Shown: positions 1,687-50,077 of the stretch, in pieces
How positions within the stretch are numbered: position 1 is the first letter of the stretch
Layout of the letters: every line of letters starts with the position of its first letter
IMG/VR virus record: IMGVR_UViG_3300045391_004297
Coordinates: 13,037-77,036 of that record
Direction: 5' to 3' (one strand)
DNA from: a virus
Length of the DNA stretch: 64,000 nucleotides
Made by a program: the position numbers and the translations under genes
Notes under the pieces: generated by a model
What the model was told of the DNA's origin: nothing
What the model saw: the letters and a program-made list of their open reading frames with translations, nothing else
Database searches by the model: none

Positions 1687-1692
1687 AACTCC

Positions 1693-2130
1693 TGACTCTC
1701 CTAAACGTCCCGCCTTTTTGACTTTCCTGTCCGATTACTGGTCTACCGCTACGTCTGACTATGCTCCCCACAACGACGCCCGACGTACCTCCACCTGACA
1801 CAACCTGACTTTCCAAACCGCACCATCCGATTTCTGACTGGAGCCAACCTACACCTTCCAAATTACTGACCGAGCAAACCGCGACATGACGCGTCGTGGC
1901 TGACTTGCCATGTTCTCACCAGAACCCACCGTCACCGACGACCCACCCGAACTTCACTGGCCTTACAAACTGACCATCCTGTACGACTTCCAAACCAAAA
2001 ACCGACGGACCCGTACACCGCCACACTTTTCCGACATGACCACGAAACCCTAGACAAGGCGTGTCATGACGCACCTCCCGCCCCTCTCACGTTCGACAAA
2101 GCTCCCCACGCCACACACTCACCATCTCAG
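1693..2130 (+). repeat. periodic non-coding array 1 (GAC-anchored units, C every 5th nt)
   Basis: C at every 5th base 1759-1824 (14 in a row), 1870-1900 (7), 2006-2031 (6), 2050-2075 (6); recurrent TGAC; G-poor + strand. Confidence 0.8.
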
Positions 2131-2211
2131 GTGACAAGTGCTTGCGGCGCCGAGGCGTAAAGTCCAAGATCATTTCCTTCCCACCAACCACAATTTCCCA
2201 AAGGATGTGAC

Positions 2212-4386: not shown

Positions 4387-4635
4387 ATGGCGTTGTATTG
4401 GGAAGTAAGCTTCCGGGTTTCTGCTGGGCAGGATCGATTGACCCGGTACGGTGAGGTCAAGCAGGCCCATCCGGTCCCGCAAGAATGTGTTGATGATGAG
4501 GCTCAGGCACATCAACAAATTGAAGACCAGATCGCTACCGATGGTGAGCCGACCAAGCCATACGCGATTTACACCCAAGGCTGGCGCGATGGGGTAGCTT
4601 TCGGATTCAATGCTCGTATCGATCCCAACGCCTGA
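4387..4635 (+). CDS. hypothetical protein
   Basis: GAGGA RBS, 82 aa. Confidence 0.55.
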   Translation: MALYWEVSFRVSAGQDRLTRYGEVKQAHPVPQECVDDEAQAHQQIEDQIATDGEPTKPYAIYTQGWRDGVAFGFNARIDPNA

Positions 4636-4850
4636 CTGTCCTGCACTGCTGTTCCCTCGATCCAAACTGCCCGATCCTTGCGACTATCCTCCCCAATTTC
4701 CGTCCTCACTGACTAAACTCCGCCACCCGTCCCACTTCGATTGACTATCCTTGGCATACCCTTCCACATCAACAACTTGACTATCCTTCGCAGTCCCGCC
4801 CACCGCGACTATACTTTTCCCCCCGCATCTTTCCAACCCAACACGACACG
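4634..4850 (+). repeat. periodic non-coding array 2
   Basis: units start GACT at 4634,4682,4711,4743,4779,4807; 5-nt C runs 4713-4738, 4745-4770, 4781-4806, 4809-4849. Confidence 0.85.
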
Positions 4851-4868
4851 TTCACCAGGGAGGAAAAT

Positions 4869-6395
4869 ATGGCCGCGCATCAACCCACACCGGGCGATGA
4901 AGAAGACAGCGAGCCGGAAGGTACGCCCACCCCAGAGGGTATGGAGACGCAGGCTGTTCGGGCCAAAAAACTGGAGCGGTTGTACAACATTGACAAGTTT
5001 CGGTACTTTGACCTGATTGGTTATAAGCCGCACCCGAAGCAGTTGTTGTTTCACCGGTCCACGGCGCGCTTCAAGATCCCGATTTGTGGGCGTCGATTCG
5101 GCAAATCCCAGATGGCGGCCAAAGAGTACGAGCCGTTGCTGCTGATTCCGAATCGACGATATTGGATTGTCGGGCCGACCTATGACCTGGGCGAAAAAGA
5201 GTTCCGGATTATCTGGAACGACATGATCATCAAGCTTGGCCTTGGCAAGGAAAAAGATGTCAAGCGGTCATATGCTAAGAAGCAGGGCGATCTATCCATC
5301 GAGTTTCCCTGGCGTACTCGTATTGAGGTTCGTTCGGCAGATCGACCGGAGAATCTGGTCGGCGAGGGTCTTCATGGCGTCATCATGTCCGAGGCCGCTA
5401 AGCACACCCAGGACACTTGGGATCGCTTTATCCGGCCATCCCTCACTGACTACCGTGGTTCGGCGATTTTCCCAACGACACCGGAAGGCCAGAACTGGAT
5501 CTACAACCTGTGGAAGATGGGTCGTGATCCGCAAGAGCCGGAGTTTGAGTCCTGGCAGTTCCCGAGTTGGGAAAACCCGTACGTCTACCCCAAGGGAAAG
5601 CTCGACCCGGAAATCCTGCTGACCATGCGCACCACTCCGAAAGAAGAGTTCCTTCAGGAGTATGCGGCGGACTTCACCTCATTTGCCGGTAAGGTGTATG
5701 GCGAGTGGGACGAAGCGGTGCACGTGCAAGAGGTCAAGTACAATCCGCTGCTGCCCAACTACATCGCTTTTGACTGGGGTTGGGCTGCCCCGATGGCCGC
5801 TGTGGAGTTTCAAATTGACAGCTTTGGTCGGTGCCGGGTGTGGCGGGAGCACTACAAAACACACACGCGGTTGAAGGACTTTCTCAACGAATTGAAAAGC
5901 CGGCCACAGCCGCCGGATTACCATTTGAATTTGACCTTTGGCGACGCTGCCGATCCTGAGGCTGTCGTTTCTGTCTCGGAAGACTTCGCGCCCTGTGTGG
6001 GCGACCCTCGCTCCAAGACCGGCACCCAGGGTGGGTCGTTGGAGTCTGGTAAGCGCGAAGGTATCGAGCTGGTCAAGGGTCTGCTAATGTTGCAGCAGGT
6101 CGATGAGGATGAGTTCGGCACGCCGATCGAGATGCCCTGGTTGACCGTGGATCATTCGTGTTACAACCTAATCCGGGAGTTCAATAATTACCGCAACCAA
6201 GACCCGGTGCGTGGGCAAGACCCACGAGAGCAAACCTTCAAAAAGGATGATCACGCCCTGGATGCGCTGCGTTACGGGTTGATGCATGTGCTGAAGCTCG
6301 GCGCCACCATGAGTTTAGGTGATGTGATGGATCTTTCGGATATGCATGACACGCCAGCTTCTGGCTACTTCACCACGAACAAGACCTTTGCTTGA
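4869..6395 (+). CDS. terL: terminase large subunit
   Basis: CGRRFGKS Walker A, GVIMSE Walker B-like, RuvC-like nuclease with FDWG and KKDDHALDALRY. Confidence 0.95.
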   Translation: MAAHQPTPGDEEDSEPEGTPTPEGMETQAVRAKKLERLYNIDKFRYFDLIGYKPHPKQLLFHRSTARFKIPICGRRFGKSQMAAKEYEPLLLIPNRRYWIVGPTYDLGEKEFRIIWNDMIIKLGLGKEKDVKRSYAKKQGDLSIEFPWRTRIEVRSADRPENLVGEGLHGVIMSEAAKHTQDTWDRFIRPSLTDYRGSAIFPTTPEGQNWIYNLWKMGRDPQEPEFESWQFPSWENPYVYPKGKLDPEILLTMRTTPKEEFLQEYAADFTSFAGKVYGEWDEAVHVQEVKYNPLLPNYIAFDWGWAAPMAAVEFQIDSFGRCRVWREHYKTHTRLKDFLNELKSRPQPPDYHLNLTFGDAADPEAVVSVSEDFAPCVGDPRSKTGTQGGSLESGKREGIELVKGLLMLQQVDEDEFGTPIEMPWLTVDHSCYNLIREFNNYRNQDPVRGQDPREQTFKKDDHALDALRYGLMHVLKLGATMSLGDVMDLSDMHDTPASGYFTTNKTFA

Positions 6396-6580
6396 CTACC
6401 CCCTACACAACAACACCTTGCTTGACTATCCCACGCACGCCAGGACTGACTTCTCTGACTATCCGCGTCCCGCTCGCCCAGTTTCGCCGCTACTCTGCCG
6501 ACACACCTAGCCCACTGCATAACACACCAAAGCAACCGACTGCCCGCCTCCCTAGCCTCCCTAGCCTCCCTCGCCGTAAG
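6394..6580 (+). repeat. periodic non-coding array 3
   Basis: CTTGACTA at 6391 and 6421; C every 5th base 6396-6446 (11 in a row); GCCTCCCTA x~3 at the end. Confidence 0.8.
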
Positions 6581-6588
6581 GGAAAATA

Positions 6589-8447: not shown

Positions 8448-8687
8448 ATGGCAGAGGATCGGCCCCGCAAACCGTATCGTAAAGAGCGGGTTGTTTCGAT
8501 TCGGTTCAGCGAAGACGAACTACGCGGTTTGCGGGAACGGGCCGACAAAGCCCATATGAGCCTGTCGGATTACATCCGAACCCGAATGAACTACGATCCG
8601 TTGATGTACCGTACTTTTGTGCCCGCCCAATCCAACACCTACACGATTGGCACTTCTTCGGTTACCTCAACGTTCATTTACCAATGA
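8448..8687 (+). CDS. ribbon-helix-helix (MobC-like) DNA-binding protein
   Basis: VSIRFSEDEL..LRERA.KAHMSLSDYIR. Confidence 0.75.
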   Translation: MAEDRPRKPYRKERVVSIRFSEDELRGLRERADKAHMSLSDYIRTRMNYDPLMYRTFVPAQSNTYTIGTSSVTSTFIYQ

Positions 8688-8860
8688 CGTGGCTACCCGC
8701 CCAATGGCACATCCCGAGCTGACTACCCGCCGTACGCCATCCCCAGCGAGCTGACATGCCCCGGCCAAACACGAGCATCCCAAGGCACGCTTACTGACTT
8801 AACACGGCACCACTACCCACCTCTTGTCCACAGACCCCCGCATAAAGCCCAACGCTAGAC
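8686..8860 (+). repeat. periodic non-coding array 4
   Basis: TGAC-anchored units with GAC at 8686,8721,8753,8796; C every 5th base 8798-8828 (7); internal repeats CTACCCGCC and CGAGCTGAC. Confidence 0.7.
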
Positions 8861-8973
8861 CCCAAAAAATTTTTGCCTAAATCCGGAAACGTGTCCTTTT
8901 GGCACTTTCCGGATTTTGCATAGCAAGATCATCGATGTCATACATGACGCCCGCCCGACTGGAGGTTTTGTCG

Positions 8974-16104: not shown

Positions 16105-19100
16105 ATGCCACTTAACTCTAGAGATCTTTGGCTAGTCCTGAAAGCGCAAGACCAGACCAACCGAGCACTTTCTTCGTTCGGTCGCAACGTGCGCAACGCT
16201 GGCGCGCAAGCTCGGCTTGCCCAACTTGAATTGCAACGGGCCCAGTCGCAGGCCACGATCACCACGGCCAAGCAGAATGCCGAGATTCTGAAGTCTGAGG
16301 CTGCCCAACTTGCTGCGCAGCGTGCCGCAATCAAGTACACCGCTTCGCAAATGGCCGCCAATGGGGCAACCCAACAGCAGCTCAAGCCATTGCACGATCA
16401 GGCCAATGCGATCGATGCCCAAATCATTGCCCGAAACAACCAGGCTGCCGCATTGCGCAACGTGGCCGCCAATGAGGCCGTACATCTGGAAACGGTCAAG
16501 GAGCAAATCTCCCAAACCAAAACCTACAACAGCGCAATTCAGGATAACGAAAAGAACCTGGCCCACCTTTCCGGGCGGTTCCAATCAGTGGCGCAGACTG
16601 CCACGGCTGCGGGTTTTGCTATTTCCGCTGCTGGCGTACTGACCCTGATTGGGATCAAAAAGGCGATCGACGTCTCGGTGGAGTACGAACGCCAAGTCCG
16701 AGCAACCGCAACACAGGTTGATGGGTTCTCCGGAAACCTGCAACAACTGGGTGACATTGGTCGGCGTGTTGCCAAAGACATCGCCGTACCATTTGAGCAG
16801 ATCCAACCGGCGCTGTTCGACGTGTTCTCGTCGATGGATGTCACCGTTGGTGAAGCTGAGAAACTGCTACGCTCATTCTCCAAGGCCGCAGTTGCCGGTC
16901 AAACCGACATTCAATCGGTGTCCCGGGCCACCATTGGTATCCTCAACGCCTTCCACTTGCCAGCCTCTGATGTCAATAAGATCTTGGACATCCAGTTCAA
17001 GCTGGTGCAAAAGGGTATTGGTACCTATGAAGAGTGGAACCAGCGCATTGGTCTGGTGACGCCGTCGGCTGTGCGTGCTGGGCAGTCTATTGAACAAATG
17101 ACCGCTGCCTTGGCGGCCTCTACTCGTATGGGTATTTCAGCGGCCCGATCCTCGGCTGCGGTATCGCGGGCATTTGACGCGTTGTCCAACCCGGCTGCGG
17201 TCAAAGCGCTCAAGGCGTTGGGTGTTTCGGCCCAAGATGCGCAAGGGCACTTCCGGCCATTCAACGAAGTGCTGCGCGATTTTCGCACTGTGCTGCTGAA
17301 GATGCCGGAGAAGGATCGACTCAAGACGATCTTGGACGTGTTCAAGGGTGCCGGTGGCACCATCGAAGCTCGGCGATTCTTGCAGAACATCCTGCTTGGC
17401 GCCGGAAACCTGGAGATGTTCGACAGTATCCTCAAGGATACCCAAAACAGTGCCGGGGCGATGGAAAACGCCTACGGCATCATGTCCGATTCAGTGGCCG
17501 CCAAAACCCAGTTGCTCAAAAACCAGTGGAAGCTGCTCGAAGAAACCGTCGGCCGGGCACTCATTCCAGCGTTCACCACCCTGGTCGGTTGGTTTGTCAA
17601 GCTGGCCCAGTGGTTTAACAACCTGCCGGAATCGACCAAAAAGACCGTTGCCATGGCAGTCTTGCTGGCCGGTGTTTTCGGGGCTATAGCTGGACCGATC
17701 CTGCTCATTGTGGGCGCACTCGGGTCGTTTATCGCCGCTATCACTGTGGCTGGTACTGCCATGTTGGTGACGGTTGCTGCCCTGGCCTCGTTTGTGACCA
17801 TCAGCGCAGCCTTCGTCGCGGGCATTGTGCTGATGTACAAGCACAGTGAGAACTTCCGCAACGGGCTGAAGATGTTCGCTATTCAGTTCCAGCGGGTCAA
17901 GGAAGCAGCGATGGACTTCGCGGTTTCCGTGTCAAGTGCGTACAAAAACCACTTGCAGGTTCCGCTGCACAACTTGGCTAACGTCATTGAGTCGAAGCTC
18001 ATGCCCGCATTCTTGCAGTTCGAGCAGATGTTCTTTAACAAGATGCTGCCGAAGATGCGCGAAGCTGGGCGGATCATCGCTGACGTTCTCGGCCAGGCGT
18101 TCAAGTTCATCGGCTGGGTCATCGAAAACATCGTCATTCCGGCAATCAACAAAGCATCCGAGTGGTGGGAAAAGAACCACAAAACGCTGGAACCGTTCCT
18201 GGGTATCCTCGCTCAGGTGGCCAAGTGGCTAGCTATCGTCGCGGCCATCATCATTGGTGTGCTCGTCGTTGCGCTGGTCGGCCCGCTGATCGCAGCCATT
18301 CTGGCCGTGGTTGCAGTGGTCGCTGGCTTCATTGCCGCAATCACGTACATCACGAAGATTGTCGAAGCTGTTTGGGGCGGACTGAAGGCTTTCTGGGGTT
18401 GGCTGTCCTCGGCCTTTGTTACCGTCTGGAACGCAGTCAGCTCCGCTGTGGTGACCGCGTGGAACGCCATAGCCAGCTTCTTTGTCAGTATTTGGAACAG
18501 CATTGCTAGCTTCTTCGTAGGCATTTGGAATGCCATTACCGGGGCGCTGAGTTCCGCGCTGAACTTCATTGGCGGGTTGTGGACCAACTTCTGGAATGGT
18601 CCGATCAGTAAGGTCATGATCGCGGCTTGGGGTTTGATCGTCGATACCGTCAAGCTCGGCATTGCCGCCGTGCAATTCGTTTTGGAATGGGCACTGAAGG
18701 GCATCCAGGCATTCTGGAGCTGGGTGTGGGGTGGGCTTTCCAGCGAACTGTCGGCCATCTGGAGCGGCATCGCGTCGTTTGCAAGCTGGGTGTGGAACGG
18801 CATTCTTGGTGCGTTGAGCATGATCTGGAATGCTATTAAGAGCTTCGCCACCTGGGTGTTCAACGGAATTGCCGGAGCAATCTCTTCGGCCTGGAATGCC
18901 GTGTCCTCGTACGTGCGCTGGGTGTGGAATGGCATTACCGGCTTCTTGTCCAGCGCTTGGAACACCATTAAATCCATCGCCTCCGGCGTGTGGATGGCCG
19001 TGAAGAACGTCATCGGCGACCGGCTCAACGAAGCCTACAACACCGTCAAGGGCTGGGTCGGCCGAGTTCAGAGCTTCTTTTCCGGAGCCGCTGGCTGGCT

Positions 19101-19518
19101 CAAAGACGCCGGACACAAAATTGTCCAGGGTCTGATTGACGGCATCATGGAAATGATTGGCAAGTTGGACGCGGCGGTGAAGAAGCTGACGGGTATCATC
19201 AGCAGTCACCTGCCCGGCTCGCCGGTCAAAACTGGCCCACTAAAAATCCTCAACCGGGGCTATGCTGGCAAGCAGATCACCCGAATGATCGCCGATGGCA
19301 TGGAAGCTGGCGTGCCGTACCTGATGGACCGCTCCGGTCGCGTGATGAGCAGCATTAACACCGGCTTCGATATGCAGGGTCAGCAGTTGTACGCCGGAAG
19401 CAACGCCGCTGGTGGACCACAAAAAGTGTTCAACATCCAACAAACCATTAACACTCGGGAGATCAGTCCGGTCCGGCAAGCAGCCGCATTGGGCTGGGAA
19501 GTGCAGACGAGGCTGTAA
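16105..19518 (+). CDS. tape measure protein
   Basis: 1137 aa, Ala-rich helical, hydrophobic central segment, ~11-aa Trp repeats. Confidence 0.95.
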   Translation: MPLNSRDLWLVLKAQDQTNRALSSFGRNVRNAGAQARLAQLELQRAQSQATITTAKQNAEILKSEAAQLAAQRAAIKYTASQMAANGATQQQLKPLHDQANAIDAQIIARNNQAAALRNVAANEAVHLETVKEQISQTKTYNSAIQDNEKNLAHLSGRFQSVAQTATAAGFAISAAGVLTLIGIKKAIDVSVEYERQVRATATQVDGFSGNLQQLGDIGRRVAKDIAVPFEQIQPALFDVFSSMDVTVGEAEKLLRSFSKAAVAGQTDIQSVSRATIGILNAFHLPASDVNKILDIQFKLVQKGIGTYEEWNQRIGLVTPSAVRAGQSIEQMTAALAASTRMGISAARSSAAVSRAFDALSNPAAVKALKALGVSAQDAQGHFRPFNEVLRDFRTVLLKMPEKDRLKTILDVFKGAGGTIEARRFLQNILLGAGNLEMFDSILKDTQNSAGAMENAYGIMSDSVAAKTQLLKNQWKLLEETVGRALIPAFTTLVGWFVKLAQWFNNLPESTKKTVAMAVLLAGVFGAIAGPILLIVGALGSFIAAITVAGTAMLVTVAALASFVTISAAFVAGIVLMYKHSENFRNGLKMFAIQFQRVKEAAMDFAVSVSSAYKNHLQVPLHNLANVIESKLMPAFLQFEQMFFNKMLPKMREAGRIIADVLGQAFKFIGWVIENIVIPAINKASEWWEKNHKTLEPFLGILAQVAKWLAIVAAIIIGVLVVALVGPLIAAILAVVAVVAGFIAAITYITKIVEAVWGGLKAFWGWLSSAFVTVWNAVSSAVVTAWNAIASFFVSIWNSIASFFVGIWNAITGALSSALNFIGGLWTNFWNGPISKVMIAAWGLIVDTVKLGIAAVQFVLEWALKGIQAFWSWVWGGLSSELSAIWSGIASFASWVWNGILGALSMIWNAIKSFATWVFNGIAGAISSAWNAVSSYVRWVWNGITGFLSSAWNTIKSIASGVWMAVKNVIGDRLNEAYNTVKGWVGRVQSFFSGAAGWLKDAGHKIVQGLIDGIMEMIGKLDAAVKKLTGIISSHLPGSPVKTGPLKILNRGYAGKQITRMIADGMEAGVPYLMDRSGRVMSSINTGFDMQGQQLYAGSNAAGGPQKVFNIQQTINTREISPVRQAAALGWEVQTRL

Positions 19519-48506: not shown

Positions 48507-49394
48507 CTAAACGGCTTTCCAGTCGGTGACTTCGTACTTGCCGTAACCCTGCGAGCGCGAAGCGCCGATACCCTGCTGCTCCCCGGTGAGCCACAGCAGG
48601 GCCCACTCTTTGTCGGAGAAGTCGTAGTCGGTGGTCACGTGGAATTCCAGCACCGCGTTTTCCACGTACTCTTCGTACTGGATGCCAGAACCCCGGAAGG
48701 TGTGCACGAAGCGCTGGTTGATCCCAGTGGGCTCACCCTTGACCGGCTCGTTGAGGTAGATGCGCGTCTCGGGCACGAACACGTGCTCAGCGAAGAACGA
48801 CAATGTGCCCTTGCGGGTCGGACCCCAACGCTCCTTGGGCCAACGCACATTCGCCGCTTCCTTGATGGCGGCCTTGGCCTGGCGACCCTCGATGTACAGG
48901 CCGTTTTTGGGATCACGCTTGAACCCGTTGAGGTGCTTGTTCATGTTGACGATCTTGGTGGCTTCGTTGATGTCCACGCCCTTGTCGAGCATGACCTCAG
49001 CGACCATTTCGCGGATGACGTCTTCCTTGTCCACGCCAAGCTTGGTCTTGAGCCAACCTTCGGCAACCTTCGGGTCAGACGGGGTACCACCGGCGATGAC
49101 CGGGACCGTCAACTGGATGCGGAAGTTGTACGGGTACGCGGTCGGGCGGTACTGTTCGAAGACAGATGCCACAGTGGGCTGTCCTTTCTGGATACGGTCA
49201 ATCAGTTCTTGGTTTGGTGCTGGTGGATTTGGATCGACCCGATTGAACCAAACCTCCTCAACAACAGGTTTCGTCGTTGTTTTGCGTTTTGGCTTCGGCT
49301 TTTCCTCGATCTCAGGTTCCACTGTTTCGAGTTCGGGATCGACAGCTCGGCTGGACCGATTGCTGCGCGTCCTGGCGGTGACGAATTCCACCAT
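48507..49394 (-). CDS. stand-alone Cas7/RAMP-like protein
   Basis: LYIEGRQAKAAIKEAA (RAMP IPG..KG..R equivalent), thumb-like GINQRFVHTFRGSGIQYEE, C-terminal Gly loop GIGASRSQGYGKYEV. Confidence 0.8.
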   Translation of the reverse strand: MVEFVTARTRSNRSSRAVDPELETVEPEIEEKPKPKRKTTTKPVVEEVWFNRVDPNPPAPNQELIDRIQKGQPTVASVFEQYRPTAYPYNFRIQLTVPVIAGGTPSDPKVAEGWLKTKLGVDKEDVIREMVAEVMLDKGVDINEATKIVNMNKHLNGFKRDPKNGLYIEGRQAKAAIKEAANVRWPKERWGPTRKGTLSFFAEHVFVPETRIYLNEPVKGEPTGINQRFVHTFRGSGIQYEEYVENAVLEFHVTTDYDFSDKEWALLWLTGEQQGIGASRSQGYGKYEVTDWKAV

Positions 49395-49408: not shown

Positions 49409-50077
49409 CTATTGGTTTGTCAGACGTTCATCCGGCTCGGGAAAAGCGTGGTGCCGGTCGTCTTGGCGGACCCGAGCTGAACGAGTTTTGGGCGATGTGC
49501 GCTTCGCCTCTTTTGTTTCCTTTGCCAGCGAAGCATCCGAGATTGACATCCACATCTGGGCAAGACGCTGCTCATCGTAAATGTCAGCAACCGTCTTGGT
49601 CGGATCGTCGTCCAACCGTCGGGCCAGCACATTCAAAAACGCCGCTTGCATGGCGTTTTGATCGGCTCGCTTCTGGTAGGAATCTGCCACAAAGTGCAGA
49701 TCTTTCGCGGTCATTTGAGACAGTCGCTTGCGCAGCCCGTCAGCGGTCACGTGCACCATAGCGAAGAATCCGCCGAGTGCTTCGTTGTCGCCTTCGCTGA
49801 ACTTTTTGGCTGCCTCGTTGAAAGCCATCCGATTTGCGTTGCGCCGCACATGCGTGCGCAGTGAGGCGTCTCGGCGATTGATCGCTGTTCGCACAACTTC
49901 TTTGGCTTGGAACAAAAGCCAACCGATGAGCAGGTCTTTGTCAGTTTCTGTCAGTTTGCGCACGATTTCAGCGGCGATGTTGGCTGAGTTGTAAGCACCT
50001 TCAGCCGTGTATTCATCGATCATTCGCCGCATTTCGAGGGCGTAGTTGCGATAGTAGATAGGTTCGTCTGCGGCCAT
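49409..50077 (-). CDS. helical hypothetical protein upstream of Cas7-like gene
   Basis: 222 aa, AAAGG RBS; 14-nt gap to next gene. Confidence 0.7.
   Translation of the reverse strand: MAADEPIYYRNYALEMRRMIDEYTAEGAYNSANIAAEIVRKLTETDKDLLIGWLLFQAKEVVRTAINRRDASLRTHVRRNANRMAFNEAAKKFSEGDNEALGGFFAMVHVTADGLRKRLSQMTAKDLHFVADSYQKRADQNAMQAAFLNVLARRLDDDPTKTVADIYDEQRLAQMWMSISDASLAKETKEAKRTSPKTRSARVRQDDRHHAFPEPDERLTNQ

What the first reader, a model, noticed from the sequence alone, without database searches (positions are those of the whole stretch)
4634..4850. Array 2: cleanest unit structure, directly upstream of terL
Six units start with GACT at 4634, 4682, 4711, 4743, 4779 and 4807 (lengths 48, 29, 32, 36, 28); GACTAT(C/A)C opens four of them. 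The last four units keep C in 5-nt phase from the anchor (6, 6, 6 and 9 steps). The constant-head plus periodic-variable-body design resembles a repeat-spacer array. Alternative: operator sites, since TTGACTATCC loosely resembles the reverse complement of mycobacteriophage L5 stoperators.
Basis: partly seen in the sequence, partly recalled or inferred. Interest (0 to 1): 0.85.

Follow-up and report, generated by a model that had tools for sequence, protein, structure and literature searches.

The report
Phage pentamer-phased array with Cas7-like partner
The 233-base gap before this phage's terminase gene is one of many non-coding tracts built from a GAC mark followed by a C at every fifth base; dozens of otherwise unrelated phages carry the same design, always with a lone Cas7-like protein, which points to a phage RNA-protein system I could not find described.

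Summary
Heads, unit lengths and the 5-nt C phase are all present (in-phase C 26/34 versus 0.20-0.43 at other offsets; shuffle P<2e-4).

It is not a local oddity. The 92-kb soil phage has about 11 C-rich, G-poor intergenic tracts, all on the sense strand, with the same grammar. That grammar is an NNNNC lattice punctuated by (Y)GAC, with a modal unit of 29 nt.

A pattern scan found the same grammar in at least 48 other IMG/VR loci. There, unit lengths are quantised at 23/28/33/38/43 nt.

Every array-bearing record of 36 kb or more (20/20) encodes one protein family, here at window 48507-49394(-). Four array-less terL relatives lack it. In 59 of 67 loci found through the protein, an array lies on its strand, usually 40-140 nt upstream.

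The AF2 model of this protein matches Csm3/Cas7 (Foldseek E 2e-6; VIA Z 10.1). A homotrimer prediction passes its controls.

It is not a CRISPR array and not L5 stoperators.

Best reading: a transcribed assembly track for a Cas7-like filament in a 5-nt register that controls the downstream gene, terL. Binding and function are inferred, not shown.

The scan had already noted this module on another genome (e1-5347686). I found no literature on it.

The parts
4387..4635 (+). Upstream 82-aa ORF of unknown function. Its TGA stop (4633-4635) is the first three bases of the first TGAC anchor.
   Evidence: no Pfam or PHROG hit
4633..4680 (+). Unit 1: TGAC plus body, 48 nt. Weakest unit: 5 of 8 pentamers end in C.
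4681..4709 (+). Unit 2: CGAC-TATCC head, 29 nt. 4 of 5 pentamers end in C.
4710..4741 (+). Unit 3: TGAC-TAAAC head, 32 nt. 5 of 5 pentamers end in C. A soil strain variant reads CGAC here (4710 T>C), which keeps the Y.
4742..4777 (+). Unit 4: TGAC-TATCC head, 36 nt. 5 of 6 pentamers end in C.
4778..4805 (+). Unit 5: TGAC-TATCC head, 28 nt. 4 of 4 pentamers end in C, and the phase runs into the C of the next anchor.
4806..4843 (+). Unit 6: CGAC-TATAC head, 38 nt. 6 of 6 pentamers end in C. Its CUUUUCCCCCC stretch is predicted to pair with the terL Shine-Dalgarno region.
4844..4868 (+). End of the lattice: a CGAC followed by the unphased ribosome-binding region (GGGAGG at about 4858) of terL.
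4869..6395 (+). terL-like gene (508 aa) led by array 2. Its TGA stop is part of the first anchor of array 3.
1687..2137 (+). Array 1, same grammar. It is the leader of an Acb2/Tad1-hairpin-domain ORF (2212-2493).
6393..6588 (+). Array 3, between terL and the portal gene. It ends in a GCCTCCCTA x3.3 tandem repeat.
8686..8910 (+). Array 4, after the portal and a NikA-like RHH ORF, ahead of a DUF6582 ORF and the Mu-like protease I gene.
48507..49394 (-). Family A: lone Cas7/Csm3-like RAMP protein. The conserved core is about 222 aa, encoded at 48507-49184. It is the candidate binder of the arrays.
49409..50077 (-). Family B: helical protein of about 170-220 aa with no known fold, encoded just upstream of A. 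Relatives occur in 9 other fetched genomes, where the gene touches an array.

Best explanation
Array 2 is one copy of a phage-borne, non-coding 'pentamer lattice'. It consists of runs of NNNNC pentamers on the sense strand, punctuated every 5-7 pentamers by (Y)GAC.

I propose the following. It is transcribed as the untranslated leader of terL. The RNA is unstructured, C-rich and G-poor. It acts as an assembly track for the phage's lone Cas7-like protein (family A, window 48507-49394, minus strand). One subunit binds per pentamer, with a pocket that reads the phased C. The GAC marks set the register and the length of each short filament, possibly with the helical partner B as a cap.

Coating would decide the fate of the transcript. 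A naked tract of this composition is an ideal Rho and RNase substrate, while a coated tract would read through, be stabilised, or have its ribosome site controlled. On this model the array-led genes depend on the level of A. In this phage those genes are an Acb2/Tad1-like ORF, terL, the portal gene and the protease. In most other phages they are A and B themselves.

Shown: the grammar, its strand rule, its non-coding nature, its spread, its linkage to A, and the Cas7-like fold of A.

Inferred: RNA binding in a 5-nt register.

Speculative: the regulatory output.
For: Grammar:
- Anchored C phase in array 2.
- Genome-wide, 155 YGAC anchors have C at +5, +10 and +15 in 84%, 73% and 59% of cases.
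- Pooled periodicity z = 11.5, with a Fourier peak at 4.9 nt.
- The strict pattern gives 66 hits in this genome against 13 for the reversed control.

Same grammar elsewhere:
- It occurs in 48 other viral loci.
- All 20 whole records tested score well above their controls.
- Unit lengths are quantised in 5-nt steps (28: 39, 33: 107, 38: 67).
- The lattice continues through the Y of the anchor, so GAC behaves as a 3-nt insertion.

RNA-level hints:
- Arrays have about zero coding overlap.
- About 50 of 58 arrays share the strand of their flanking genes.
- In loci found through the protein, strict units number 1116 on A's strand against 151 on the other.
- Array 2 RNA is unstructured (z = -0.33).

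Linkage to A:
- A is the only family shared by 13-14 of 14 fetched array genomes and absent from the array-less relative G003.
- Six further array-bearing records also encode A. The four array-less terL relatives do not.
- 59 of 67 protein-ascertained loci carry arrays (46 of 53 that are independent of the pattern scan), usually 40-140 nt upstream of A.
- 12 of 15 loci in genome contigs, most of them assigned to Actinomycetota, show the same arrangement.

The protein:
- AF2 pLDDT 76.8 and pTM 0.70.
- All top 50 Foldseek PDB matches are Csm3/Cas7 chains (E from 2e-6).
- VIA-align gives Z 10.1 for Csm3 and Z 7-10 for Cmr4, Cas7-11, type IV and type I Cas7.
- The helix motif EGRQxKAAxKEA and the glycine-rich loop GIGASRSQGYG are conserved.
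- The homotrimer prediction scores 0.48 against 0.00 for the best control, with a head-to-tail interface.

Selection:
- Between related prophages, in-phase C is 84% conserved, other C 68% and non-C positions 46%.
- Unit content turns over through indels.
Against: - No transcript, processing or binding data exist. No RNA run holds this phage.
- All solved Cas7 filaments use a 6-nt register and do not read base identity (established knowledge). A 5-nt, C-reading register would be unprecedented.
- In this phage, A's own operon has no array in its leader.
- At least one fragment (L082) and two arrays elsewhere lie antisense to their neighbouring genes.
- Gene direction may be confounded with replication direction, so the strand rule does not strictly prove an RNA-level role.
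- Sequence-level support for RAMP membership is only sub-threshold.
- Arrays of 0.6-5 kb are far longer than simple autoregulation would need.
Confidence: 0.5

Rival explanations
1. Guide-RNA array. The transcript is cut at the GAC marks into 28-38-nt RNAs. Each RNA is loaded with 5-7 copies of A. The phased C is flipped out, much as every sixth base is in Cascade and Csm. The variable bases guide the particle to complementary host or rival-phage RNA or DNA.
For: - Unit sizes are quantised in steps of one subunit footprint, as type III crRNAs are.
- Arrays sit next to the Cas7-like gene, as CRISPR arrays sit next to cas genes.
- Bodies are hypervariable between related phages while the frame is kept.
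- RAMP proteins include RNA-processing enzymes (established knowledge).
Against: - Bodies are G-depleted at non-phase positions (G 0.22 against C 0.32), which fits selection for unstructured RNA rather than arbitrary targets.
- There is no excess of complementary sites in 15 phage genomes: 4 against 7 in the control, apart from the two terminal-repeat copies of the arrays themselves.
- No nuclease or Cas10-like partner appeared among the families shared between array-bearing genomes.
- The Asp at the position of the Csm3 catalytic residue is not conserved.
- In this phage the arrays are embedded in mRNA leaders.
- Host genomes could not be searched.
Confidence: 0.2
2. Rho-dependent terminators or plain unstructured spacers, acting without A. 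The C-rich, G-poor untranslated RNA simply loads host Rho or keeps ribosome sites open. The periodicity would then reflect the pentanucleotide contacts of Rho's primary binding sites.
For: - The tracts are C>G, unstructured, untranslated, longer than 80 nt and on the sense strand.
- Each E. coli Rho subunit engages 5 nt, separated by 4-5-nt linkers (PMC12360218), so a 5-nt C lattice fits any register.
Against: - This does not explain the GAC punctuation, the 5-nt quantised unit lengths, or the strict co-occurrence and adjacency with family A.
- Close terL relatives manage without any such tract.
Confidence: 0.1
3. Decoy or sponge. The array RNA, with or without A, soaks up a host factor such as a host class 1 CRISPR backbone protein, Rho or an RNase. 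It would act as an anti-defence or takeover device rather than as a cis regulator.
For: - Some phages carry very large arrays. G005 has about 5.4 kb in a row, which is more than regulation should need.
- Array 1 here leads an Acb2/Tad1-like anti-defence ORF.
- RNA anti-CRISPRs that mimic repeats are known (my own knowledge).
Against: - The units do not resemble any CRISPR repeat.
- A is conserved together with the arrays, which suggests it is the cognate binder.
- No data bear on any host factor.
Confidence: 0.1
4. DNA-level operator or iteron array. GACTATCC-type heads are bound on double-stranded DNA by a phage repressor, for example the NikA-like RHH protein at 8448-8687, in the manner of stoperators. 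The bodies would be irrelevant.
For: - Heads are oriented with transcription, as stoperators are.
- An RHH protein is encoded between arrays 3 and 4.
- The local head is up to 10 nt long.
Against: - The L5 stoperator consensus is not enriched and is absent from array 2.
- Across phages only GAC is constant, while the phased C of the bodies is the best conserved feature.
- The conserved partner is a RAMP-fold protein, not a DNA-binding repressor.
Confidence: 0.07

Closest known systems
Class 1 CRISPR effector backbones (Csm3/Cmr4/Cas7 filaments on crRNA), including type IV-B Csf, which assembles on non-CRISPR RNA (PMC7937560)
   Same: - The partner protein has the Cas7/Csm3 fold with a glycine-rich loop.
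- It is predicted to chain head to tail.
- The nucleic-acid partner is periodic.
- Unit lengths vary in steps of one presumed subunit footprint.
- Arrays sit beside the gene.
   Different: - There are no repeats beyond a 3-4-nt mark.
- No cas1/2, Cas5/6/8/10/11 or nuclease was seen.
- The period is 5 nt rather than 6.
- The periodic position is sequence-specified (C).
- The arrays lie in phage mRNA leaders.
- Bodies are compositionally biased, and no targets were found.
TRAP-trp leader recognition (11 G/UAG triplets about 5 nt apart wrapped around a protein ring)
   Same: An oligomeric protein reads a short signal that recurs about every 5 nt in an unstructured mRNA leader and thereby controls downstream expression.
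   Different: - The fold is unrelated.
- TRAP reads triplets and forms a closed ring.
- TRAP sites are single and short, not kilobase arrays with punctuation.
Rho utilisation (rut) sites
   Same: C-rich, G-poor, unstructured, untranslated sense-strand RNA located between genes.
   Different: rut sites have no anchor motif, no strict lattice and no dedicated phage protein partner.
T4 gene 32 autoregulation (cooperative coating of an unstructured leader)
   Same: A cooperative single-strand binder whose own mRNA leader is an unstructured binding track. In most phages the array sits directly upstream of gene A.
   Different: gp32 binding is not sequence-phased, and no arrays are dispersed to other genes.
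Mycobacteriophage L5 stoperators
   Same: Asymmetric sites that are oriented with transcription, intergenic and present in many copies per genome.
   Different: Stoperators are 13-bp near-identical DNA sites for a repressor. That consensus is not enriched here.

Membership tests
CRISPR array | Near-identical direct repeats of about 21-48 nt | tested here: not met
   Only (Y)GAC is constant. The local head is at most about 10 nt. Tandem Repeats Finder does not report these units as repeats.
CRISPR array | Unique spacers that match foreign or target DNA | tested here: inconclusive
   Bodies are unique but G-depleted. There are no complementary matches in 15 phage genomes beyond the control level. 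Host genomes were not searchable.
CRISPR array | Associated adaptation and effector cas genes (cas1/2, Cas5/6/8/10/11, nuclease) | tested here: not met
   A is the only family common to the array-bearing genomes and absent from G003. Its partner B has no Cas-like fold. Pfam scans of 26 window proteins found no other Cas family. The whole genome was not scanned.
Cas7/RAMP superfamily (protein A) | RRM-like core with thumb hairpin, i.e. the Cas7 fold | tested here: met
   The AF2 model gives Foldseek E of 2e-6 to Csm3 and type VII Cas7, with 105 PDB hits below 1e-3. VIA-align gives Z 10.1.
Cas7/RAMP superfamily (protein A) | C-terminal glycine-rich loop and basic helix-1 motif | tested here: met
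   G205, G207, R210, S211, G213 and G215 are invariant, as are R101, K104 and K108, in 35 sequences.
Cas7/RAMP superfamily (protein A) | Significant match to curated RAMP/Cas7 sequence profiles | tested here: not met
   No Pfam or PHROG hit. PADLOC Csm3, Csm4 and Cas6 hits reach only E 0.003-0.03. The PDB profile search gives E >= 0.14.
Cas7/RAMP superfamily (protein A) | Binds single-stranded RNA as a helical filament | not testable with these tools
   Only a protein-only homotrimer prediction was possible. It scored 0.48 against 0.00 for the best control, with a head-to-tail interface.
Rho utilisation site | C>G, unstructured, untranslated RNA of at least 70-80 nt | tested here: met
   The gap has C 95 and G 31 of 233 nt, and the fold z-score is -0.33.
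Rho utilisation site | Rho-dependent termination downstream | not testable with these tools
   No RNA data are available.
L5-type stoperator | 13-bp consensus GGTGGMTGTCAAG in many oriented copies | tested here: not met
   44 matches at up to 3 mismatches against 36 +/- 6 expected. None lies in array 2.
Type III toxin-antitoxin RNA repeats (ToxI-like) | Near-identical tandem repeats of about 34-40 nt upstream of an endoribonuclease toxin gene | tested here: not met
   Units are diverged (mean identity 0.4-0.5). The downstream genes are terL, the portal gene and others.

The most novel reading that the evidence does not exclude
A CRISPR-independent phage RNP system. Genome-encoded lattice RNAs, made of (NNNNC)k units punctuated by GAC, program filaments of a lone Cas7-like protein in a sequence-read 5-nt register. 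This would yield either guide-like particles or a transcript-coating switch. Either way it would be an exaptation, or an ancestral relative, of the class 1 CRISPR backbone. It is widespread in phages and prophages, most of those with an assigned host being actinobacterial.
Probability: 0.45. Interest if true: 0.95.

Novelty: categorically new. Interest (0 to 1): 0.88.

Why it matters
If A really polymerises on these tracts, three things follow.
- It would be the first Cas7-type filament whose register is written in the RNA sequence (a C every fifth base), and the first to work outside any CRISPR locus.
- It would give a new handle on how class 1 backbones arose or were exapted.
- It would add a new layer of phage gene control, or RNA-guided action, in a large and uncharacterised protein family. 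That family has at least 1692 members, most of them in phages and prophages of soil Actinomycetota.

The grammar is simple enough to test directly with synthetic RNAs. It could also become a programmable RNA-scaffolding tool.

For annotation, it explains long 'empty' C-rich gaps in many phage genomes.

Tried and rejected
- **DNA similarity to known phages:** none.
- **Rfam:** only tRNAs in the window.
- **Exact head-pair scan (TGACTATCC..TGACTATCC) in IMG/VR:** 48 hits, all unrelated or chance, including coding tandem repeats.
- **terL relatives:** five loci at 64-80% amino-acid identity have no array upstream of terL. Conservation by synteny could therefore not be used.
- **Tandem promoters:** the TTGACT heads lack a -10 hexamer at 16-18 nt. 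Only one weak promoter-like site (4787-4815) was found.
- **Small-terminase pac/cos binding repeats:** rejected, because the same grammar occurs in about 11 intergenic regions on both arms.
- **Coding low-complexity sequence:** rejected for arrays 1-4, which show no 3-nt periodicity and no ORFs. However, part of the C-rich region at genome 535-1130 lies inside a 638-aa ORF and may encode a Pro/Ser/Asp/Gln-rich tail. That reading is my own and was not tested.
- **Protein B:** Foldseek PDB found nothing below E 0.3. The AFDB cluster search gave only weak matches, to uncharacterised and DUF222 proteins.
- **Second Atlas call for B:** failed on a missing argument.
- **Literature:** seven searches found no description of the arrays or of a lone phage Cas7.
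- **RNA evidence:** none of the seven sequencing runs that hold this phage's DNA is on record as RNA.
- **Self-targeting by unit bodies:** no signal.

Full report
**1. The observation**

The region 4636-4868 is a 233-bp gap between an 82-aa ORF (4387-4635) and a 508-aa ORF (4869-6395). The second ORF is terL-like, with 35-37% identity to annotated large terminases and a weak Terminase_3C hit.

GACTATCC occurs without mismatch at 4682, 4743 and 4779, and GACTATAC at 4807.

Written from the C of each (Y)GAC, the bodies fall into pentamers that end in C. In-phase C is 26 of 34, against 0.20-0.43 at the other four offsets, and none of 5000 body shuffles reached 26.

The gap is C-rich and G-poor (C 95, G 31; GC skew to -0.63). 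It has no 3-nt periodicity. As RNA it is no more structured than shuffles (z = -0.33). The one local feature is that the last unit can pair with the terL ribosome-binding site.

**2. It is not local**

The window lies in a 92,387-bp IMG/VR virus record with terminal repeats. About 11 long intergenic regions are C-rich on the strand of the local genes: the + strand in the structural arm, and the - strand in the two other arms.

In these regions YGAC occurs 155 times. Aligned on the anchor, C stands at +5, +10 and +15 in 84%, 73% and 59% of cases. Pooled C autocorrelation at lags 5, 10, 15 and 20 exceeds shuffles by z = 11.5. Array 2 alone gives z = 2.6. The Fourier peak is at 4.9 nt, and the modal anchor spacing is 29 nt, which equals YGAC plus five pentamers. 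The strict pattern YGAC(N4C)4 has 66 hits against 13 for the reversed control.

Arrays 1-4 lead four genes in turn: an Acb2/Tad1-hairpin ORF, terL, the portal gene, and a DUF6582 ORF followed by the Mu-like protease.

The phage is real. Near-identical contigs occur in soil metagenomes from at least six studies. One strain, at about 97-98% identity, differs in array 2 by only three substitutions, one of which changes CTGAC to CCGAC. In arrays 1 and 3 it differs by indels of 14, +20 and 9 nt. At least two of these add or remove an anchor with its pentamers.

**3. The same grammar in other phages**

Phages with 64-80% identical terL have no such tract, and their pattern counts are at chance level.

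Many of these are ordinary tandem repeats. However, 72 regions in 48 loci are C-rich and G-poor with diverged units of the same design.

All 20 whole records tested score far above their reversed controls and show strong strand asymmetry, for example 120:3 and 67:1.

I fetched 13 of those genomes. They span 50-153 kb and 46-68% GC. With this phage, that makes 14 array-bearing genomes holding 58 arrays. These arrays have about zero coding overlap, and about 50 of them share the strand of their flanking genes. Two are antisense to both neighbours. A fragment, L082, also has an antisense array between terL and the portal gene.

Unit lengths are quantised at 23-24, 28-29, 33-34, 38-39 and 43-44 nt. 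Residue 3 modulo 5 accounts for 245 of 649 spacings. The consensus shows the C lattice running through the first base of the anchor, so GAC behaves as a 3-nt insertion every 5-7 pentamers. This phage prefers a 4-nt mark (YGAC) and 29-nt units.

**4. The conserved partner**

All-against-all BLASTP of the 15 genomes gave one family present in 13 array-bearing genomes and absent from the array-less relative G003. tblastn found it in the fourteenth.

The only other family of comparable spread, which includes this phage's 1137-aa ORF at 16105-19518, also occurs in G003.

Six further array-bearing records encode A. The single exception is an 11.7-kb fragment. Four array-less terL relatives lack it.

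In 12 of 13 genomes, A lies 0-106 nt from an array on the same strand. Family B (here 49409-50077, minus strand) accompanies it in 9-10 genomes, in the order array-B-array-A.

As an independent test, I ascertained loci through the protein instead of the pattern. Among 67 IMG/VR loci that encode A, 59 carry at least 4 strict units on A's strand. That is 46 of the 53 not seen in the pattern scan. Totals are 1116 forward against 151 reverse, with controls of 232 and 153. The nearest anchor is typically 40-140 nt upstream of A.

In GTDB genome contigs, 15 loci encode A. Most come from Actinomycetota (Streptomyces, Nocardiopsis, Streptosporangium, Actinomadura and others). Three lie on contigs of 236-617 kb from isolates, which suggests integrated prophages, although I did not check their flanks. 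Twelve of the 15 have an array 56-146 nt upstream.

The only cultured-phage hit is Microcystis phage Mae-JY09 at 35% identity.

In this phage, unusually, the B-A operon has no array in its leader.

**5. What A is**

The family has at least 1692 members, all unnamed and without Pfam domains, with a typical length of about 222 aa.

The AF2 model from a 35-sequence alignment has pLDDT 76.8 and pTM 0.70. Foldseek against the PDB gives 105 matches below 1e-3, and the top 50 are all Csm3/Cas7 chains of type III-A, VII and III-B complexes (E from 2e-6). An exhaustive VIA-align search puts Csm3 first (Z 10.1). Cmr4, the Cas7-11 domains, type IV Csf2 and type I Cas7 follow at Z 7-10.

Invariant residues lie in the first strand (GGxP), the following basic helix (R101, K104, K108) and the C-terminal glycine-rich loop.

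Sequence profiles give only sub-threshold RAMP hits. Membership therefore rests on the predicted fold.

A homotrimer prediction passes its controls (0.48 against 0.00) with a head-to-tail interface. This supports chain formation but does not show it.

B is helical, with no recognisable fold.

**6. Evolution of the arrays**

Three related prophage and phage loci have 86-89% identical DNA further upstream of gene A. Their arrays align only in patches and contain many indels.

In six pairwise alignments, in-phase C is 84% conserved, other C 68%, non-C positions 46% and GAC 71%. One caveat applies: aligning C-rich sequence favours C-C matches.

Selection therefore appears to act on the frame and not on the body sequence.

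**7. Mechanism**

My best-supported reading is that the arrays act as RNA. On this reading they are tracks on which the Cas7-like protein assembles, one subunit per pentamer, with GAC setting the register and length. This makes array-led transcripts dependent on A. The reading rests on the following:
- the sense-strand rule;
- the unstructured composition;
- the RAMP fold of the partner;
- the step-wise unit lengths;
- the placement directly upstream of A in most phages.

I favour a coat that blocks Rho or RNases, or that controls the ribosome site. A naked tract of this composition is what Rho prefers, and E. coli Rho reads 5-nt segments (PMC12360218). These steps are inference.

The guide-RNA rival keeps real weight. 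It would explain the crRNA-like size steps and the body turnover. It is weakened by four points: G-depleted bodies, the absence of targets in the phage genomes, the lack of a nuclease partner, and a non-conserved Asp at the Csm3 catalytic position.

A DNA operator reading is weak. The L5 consensus is not enriched, and only GAC and the phased C are conserved across phages.

**8. Comparison and novelty**

Solved Cas7 filaments have a 6-nt register that does not read base identity, and they need repeat-derived handles (established knowledge). Type IV-B assembles on non-CRISPR RNA, but it has Cas5, Cas8 and Cas11 partners (PMC7937560).

Here the register would be 5 nt and written in the sequence. 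The marks are 3-4 nt long. The arrays sit in phage mRNA leaders.

Seven literature searches found no description of such arrays or of a lone phage Cas7 family. The scan itself had noted the same module on another genome (e1-5347686).

Noticed in passing
L006:2700-13036 and window:1-430 (mostly minus strand): A second genome-wide motif, CAAA[A/T/C]CGGACAT, has 54 copies. Most are in the left arm, and many lie about 10 nt upstream of the Shine-Dalgarno sequence and ATG of small genes. It may be a phage-specific promoter or a translational operator of the early region.
   Followed up: partly
window:194-364: An AT-rich block of interlocking CATATG/ACATATGT-type palindromes lies at the point where the two gene arms diverge. 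It is a candidate origin or regulatory switch.
   Followed up: no
window:2212-2493 (+): The ORF led by array 1 carries an Acb2/Tad1 hairpin domain (Pfam E 2e-14). It is therefore a likely sponge for cyclic-nucleotide defence signals.
   Followed up: partly
window:8448-8687 (+): A 79-aa NikA-like ribbon-helix-helix ORF (Pfam E 1e-8) lies between the portal gene and array 4. The simple ORF list hides it inside a longer TTG-started frame.
   Followed up: partly
window:4806-4872: The last unit of array 2 (CUAUACUUUUCCCCCC) is predicted to pair with the terL Shine-Dalgarno and start region (GGGAGGAAAAUAUGG). This is a possible translational lock.
   Followed up: partly
window:6546-6575: A GCCTCCCTA x3.3 perfect tandem repeat sits at the 3' end of array 3. 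It is the only part of the arrays that Tandem Repeats Finder reports.
   Followed up: no
window:50103-50129 (-): The leader of the B-A operon has a short run of pentamers that begin with G or GG (GGTCT GGTTG GGCTT GCCTG GG). This is the mirror image of the C lattice. Its significance was not tested.
   Followed up: no
window:48408-48499 (-): A 92-nt tRNA-like gene, for which ARAGORN reports a four-base anticodon (acca), lies 8 nt downstream of gene A. Nine ordinary tRNAs follow at 51.2-57.6 kb.
   Followed up: no
L082:5930-6195: In an 11.7-kb phage fragment, an array of the same grammar lies between terL and the portal gene but on the antisense strand. This is an exception to the sense-strand rule.
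   Followed up: partly
L220 (G005 145.5-151 kb): A 153-kb phage carries about 5.4 kb of almost contiguous arrays (more than 110 strict units) near one genome end. This is far more than cis-regulation would seem to need.
   Followed up: partly
L006:535-1130 (-): Part of the C-rich CCGAC/CAAGATC-rich tract overlaps the 3' end of a 638-aa ORF. It may encode a Pro/Ser/Asp/Gln-rich disordered tail rather than being an array.
   Followed up: no
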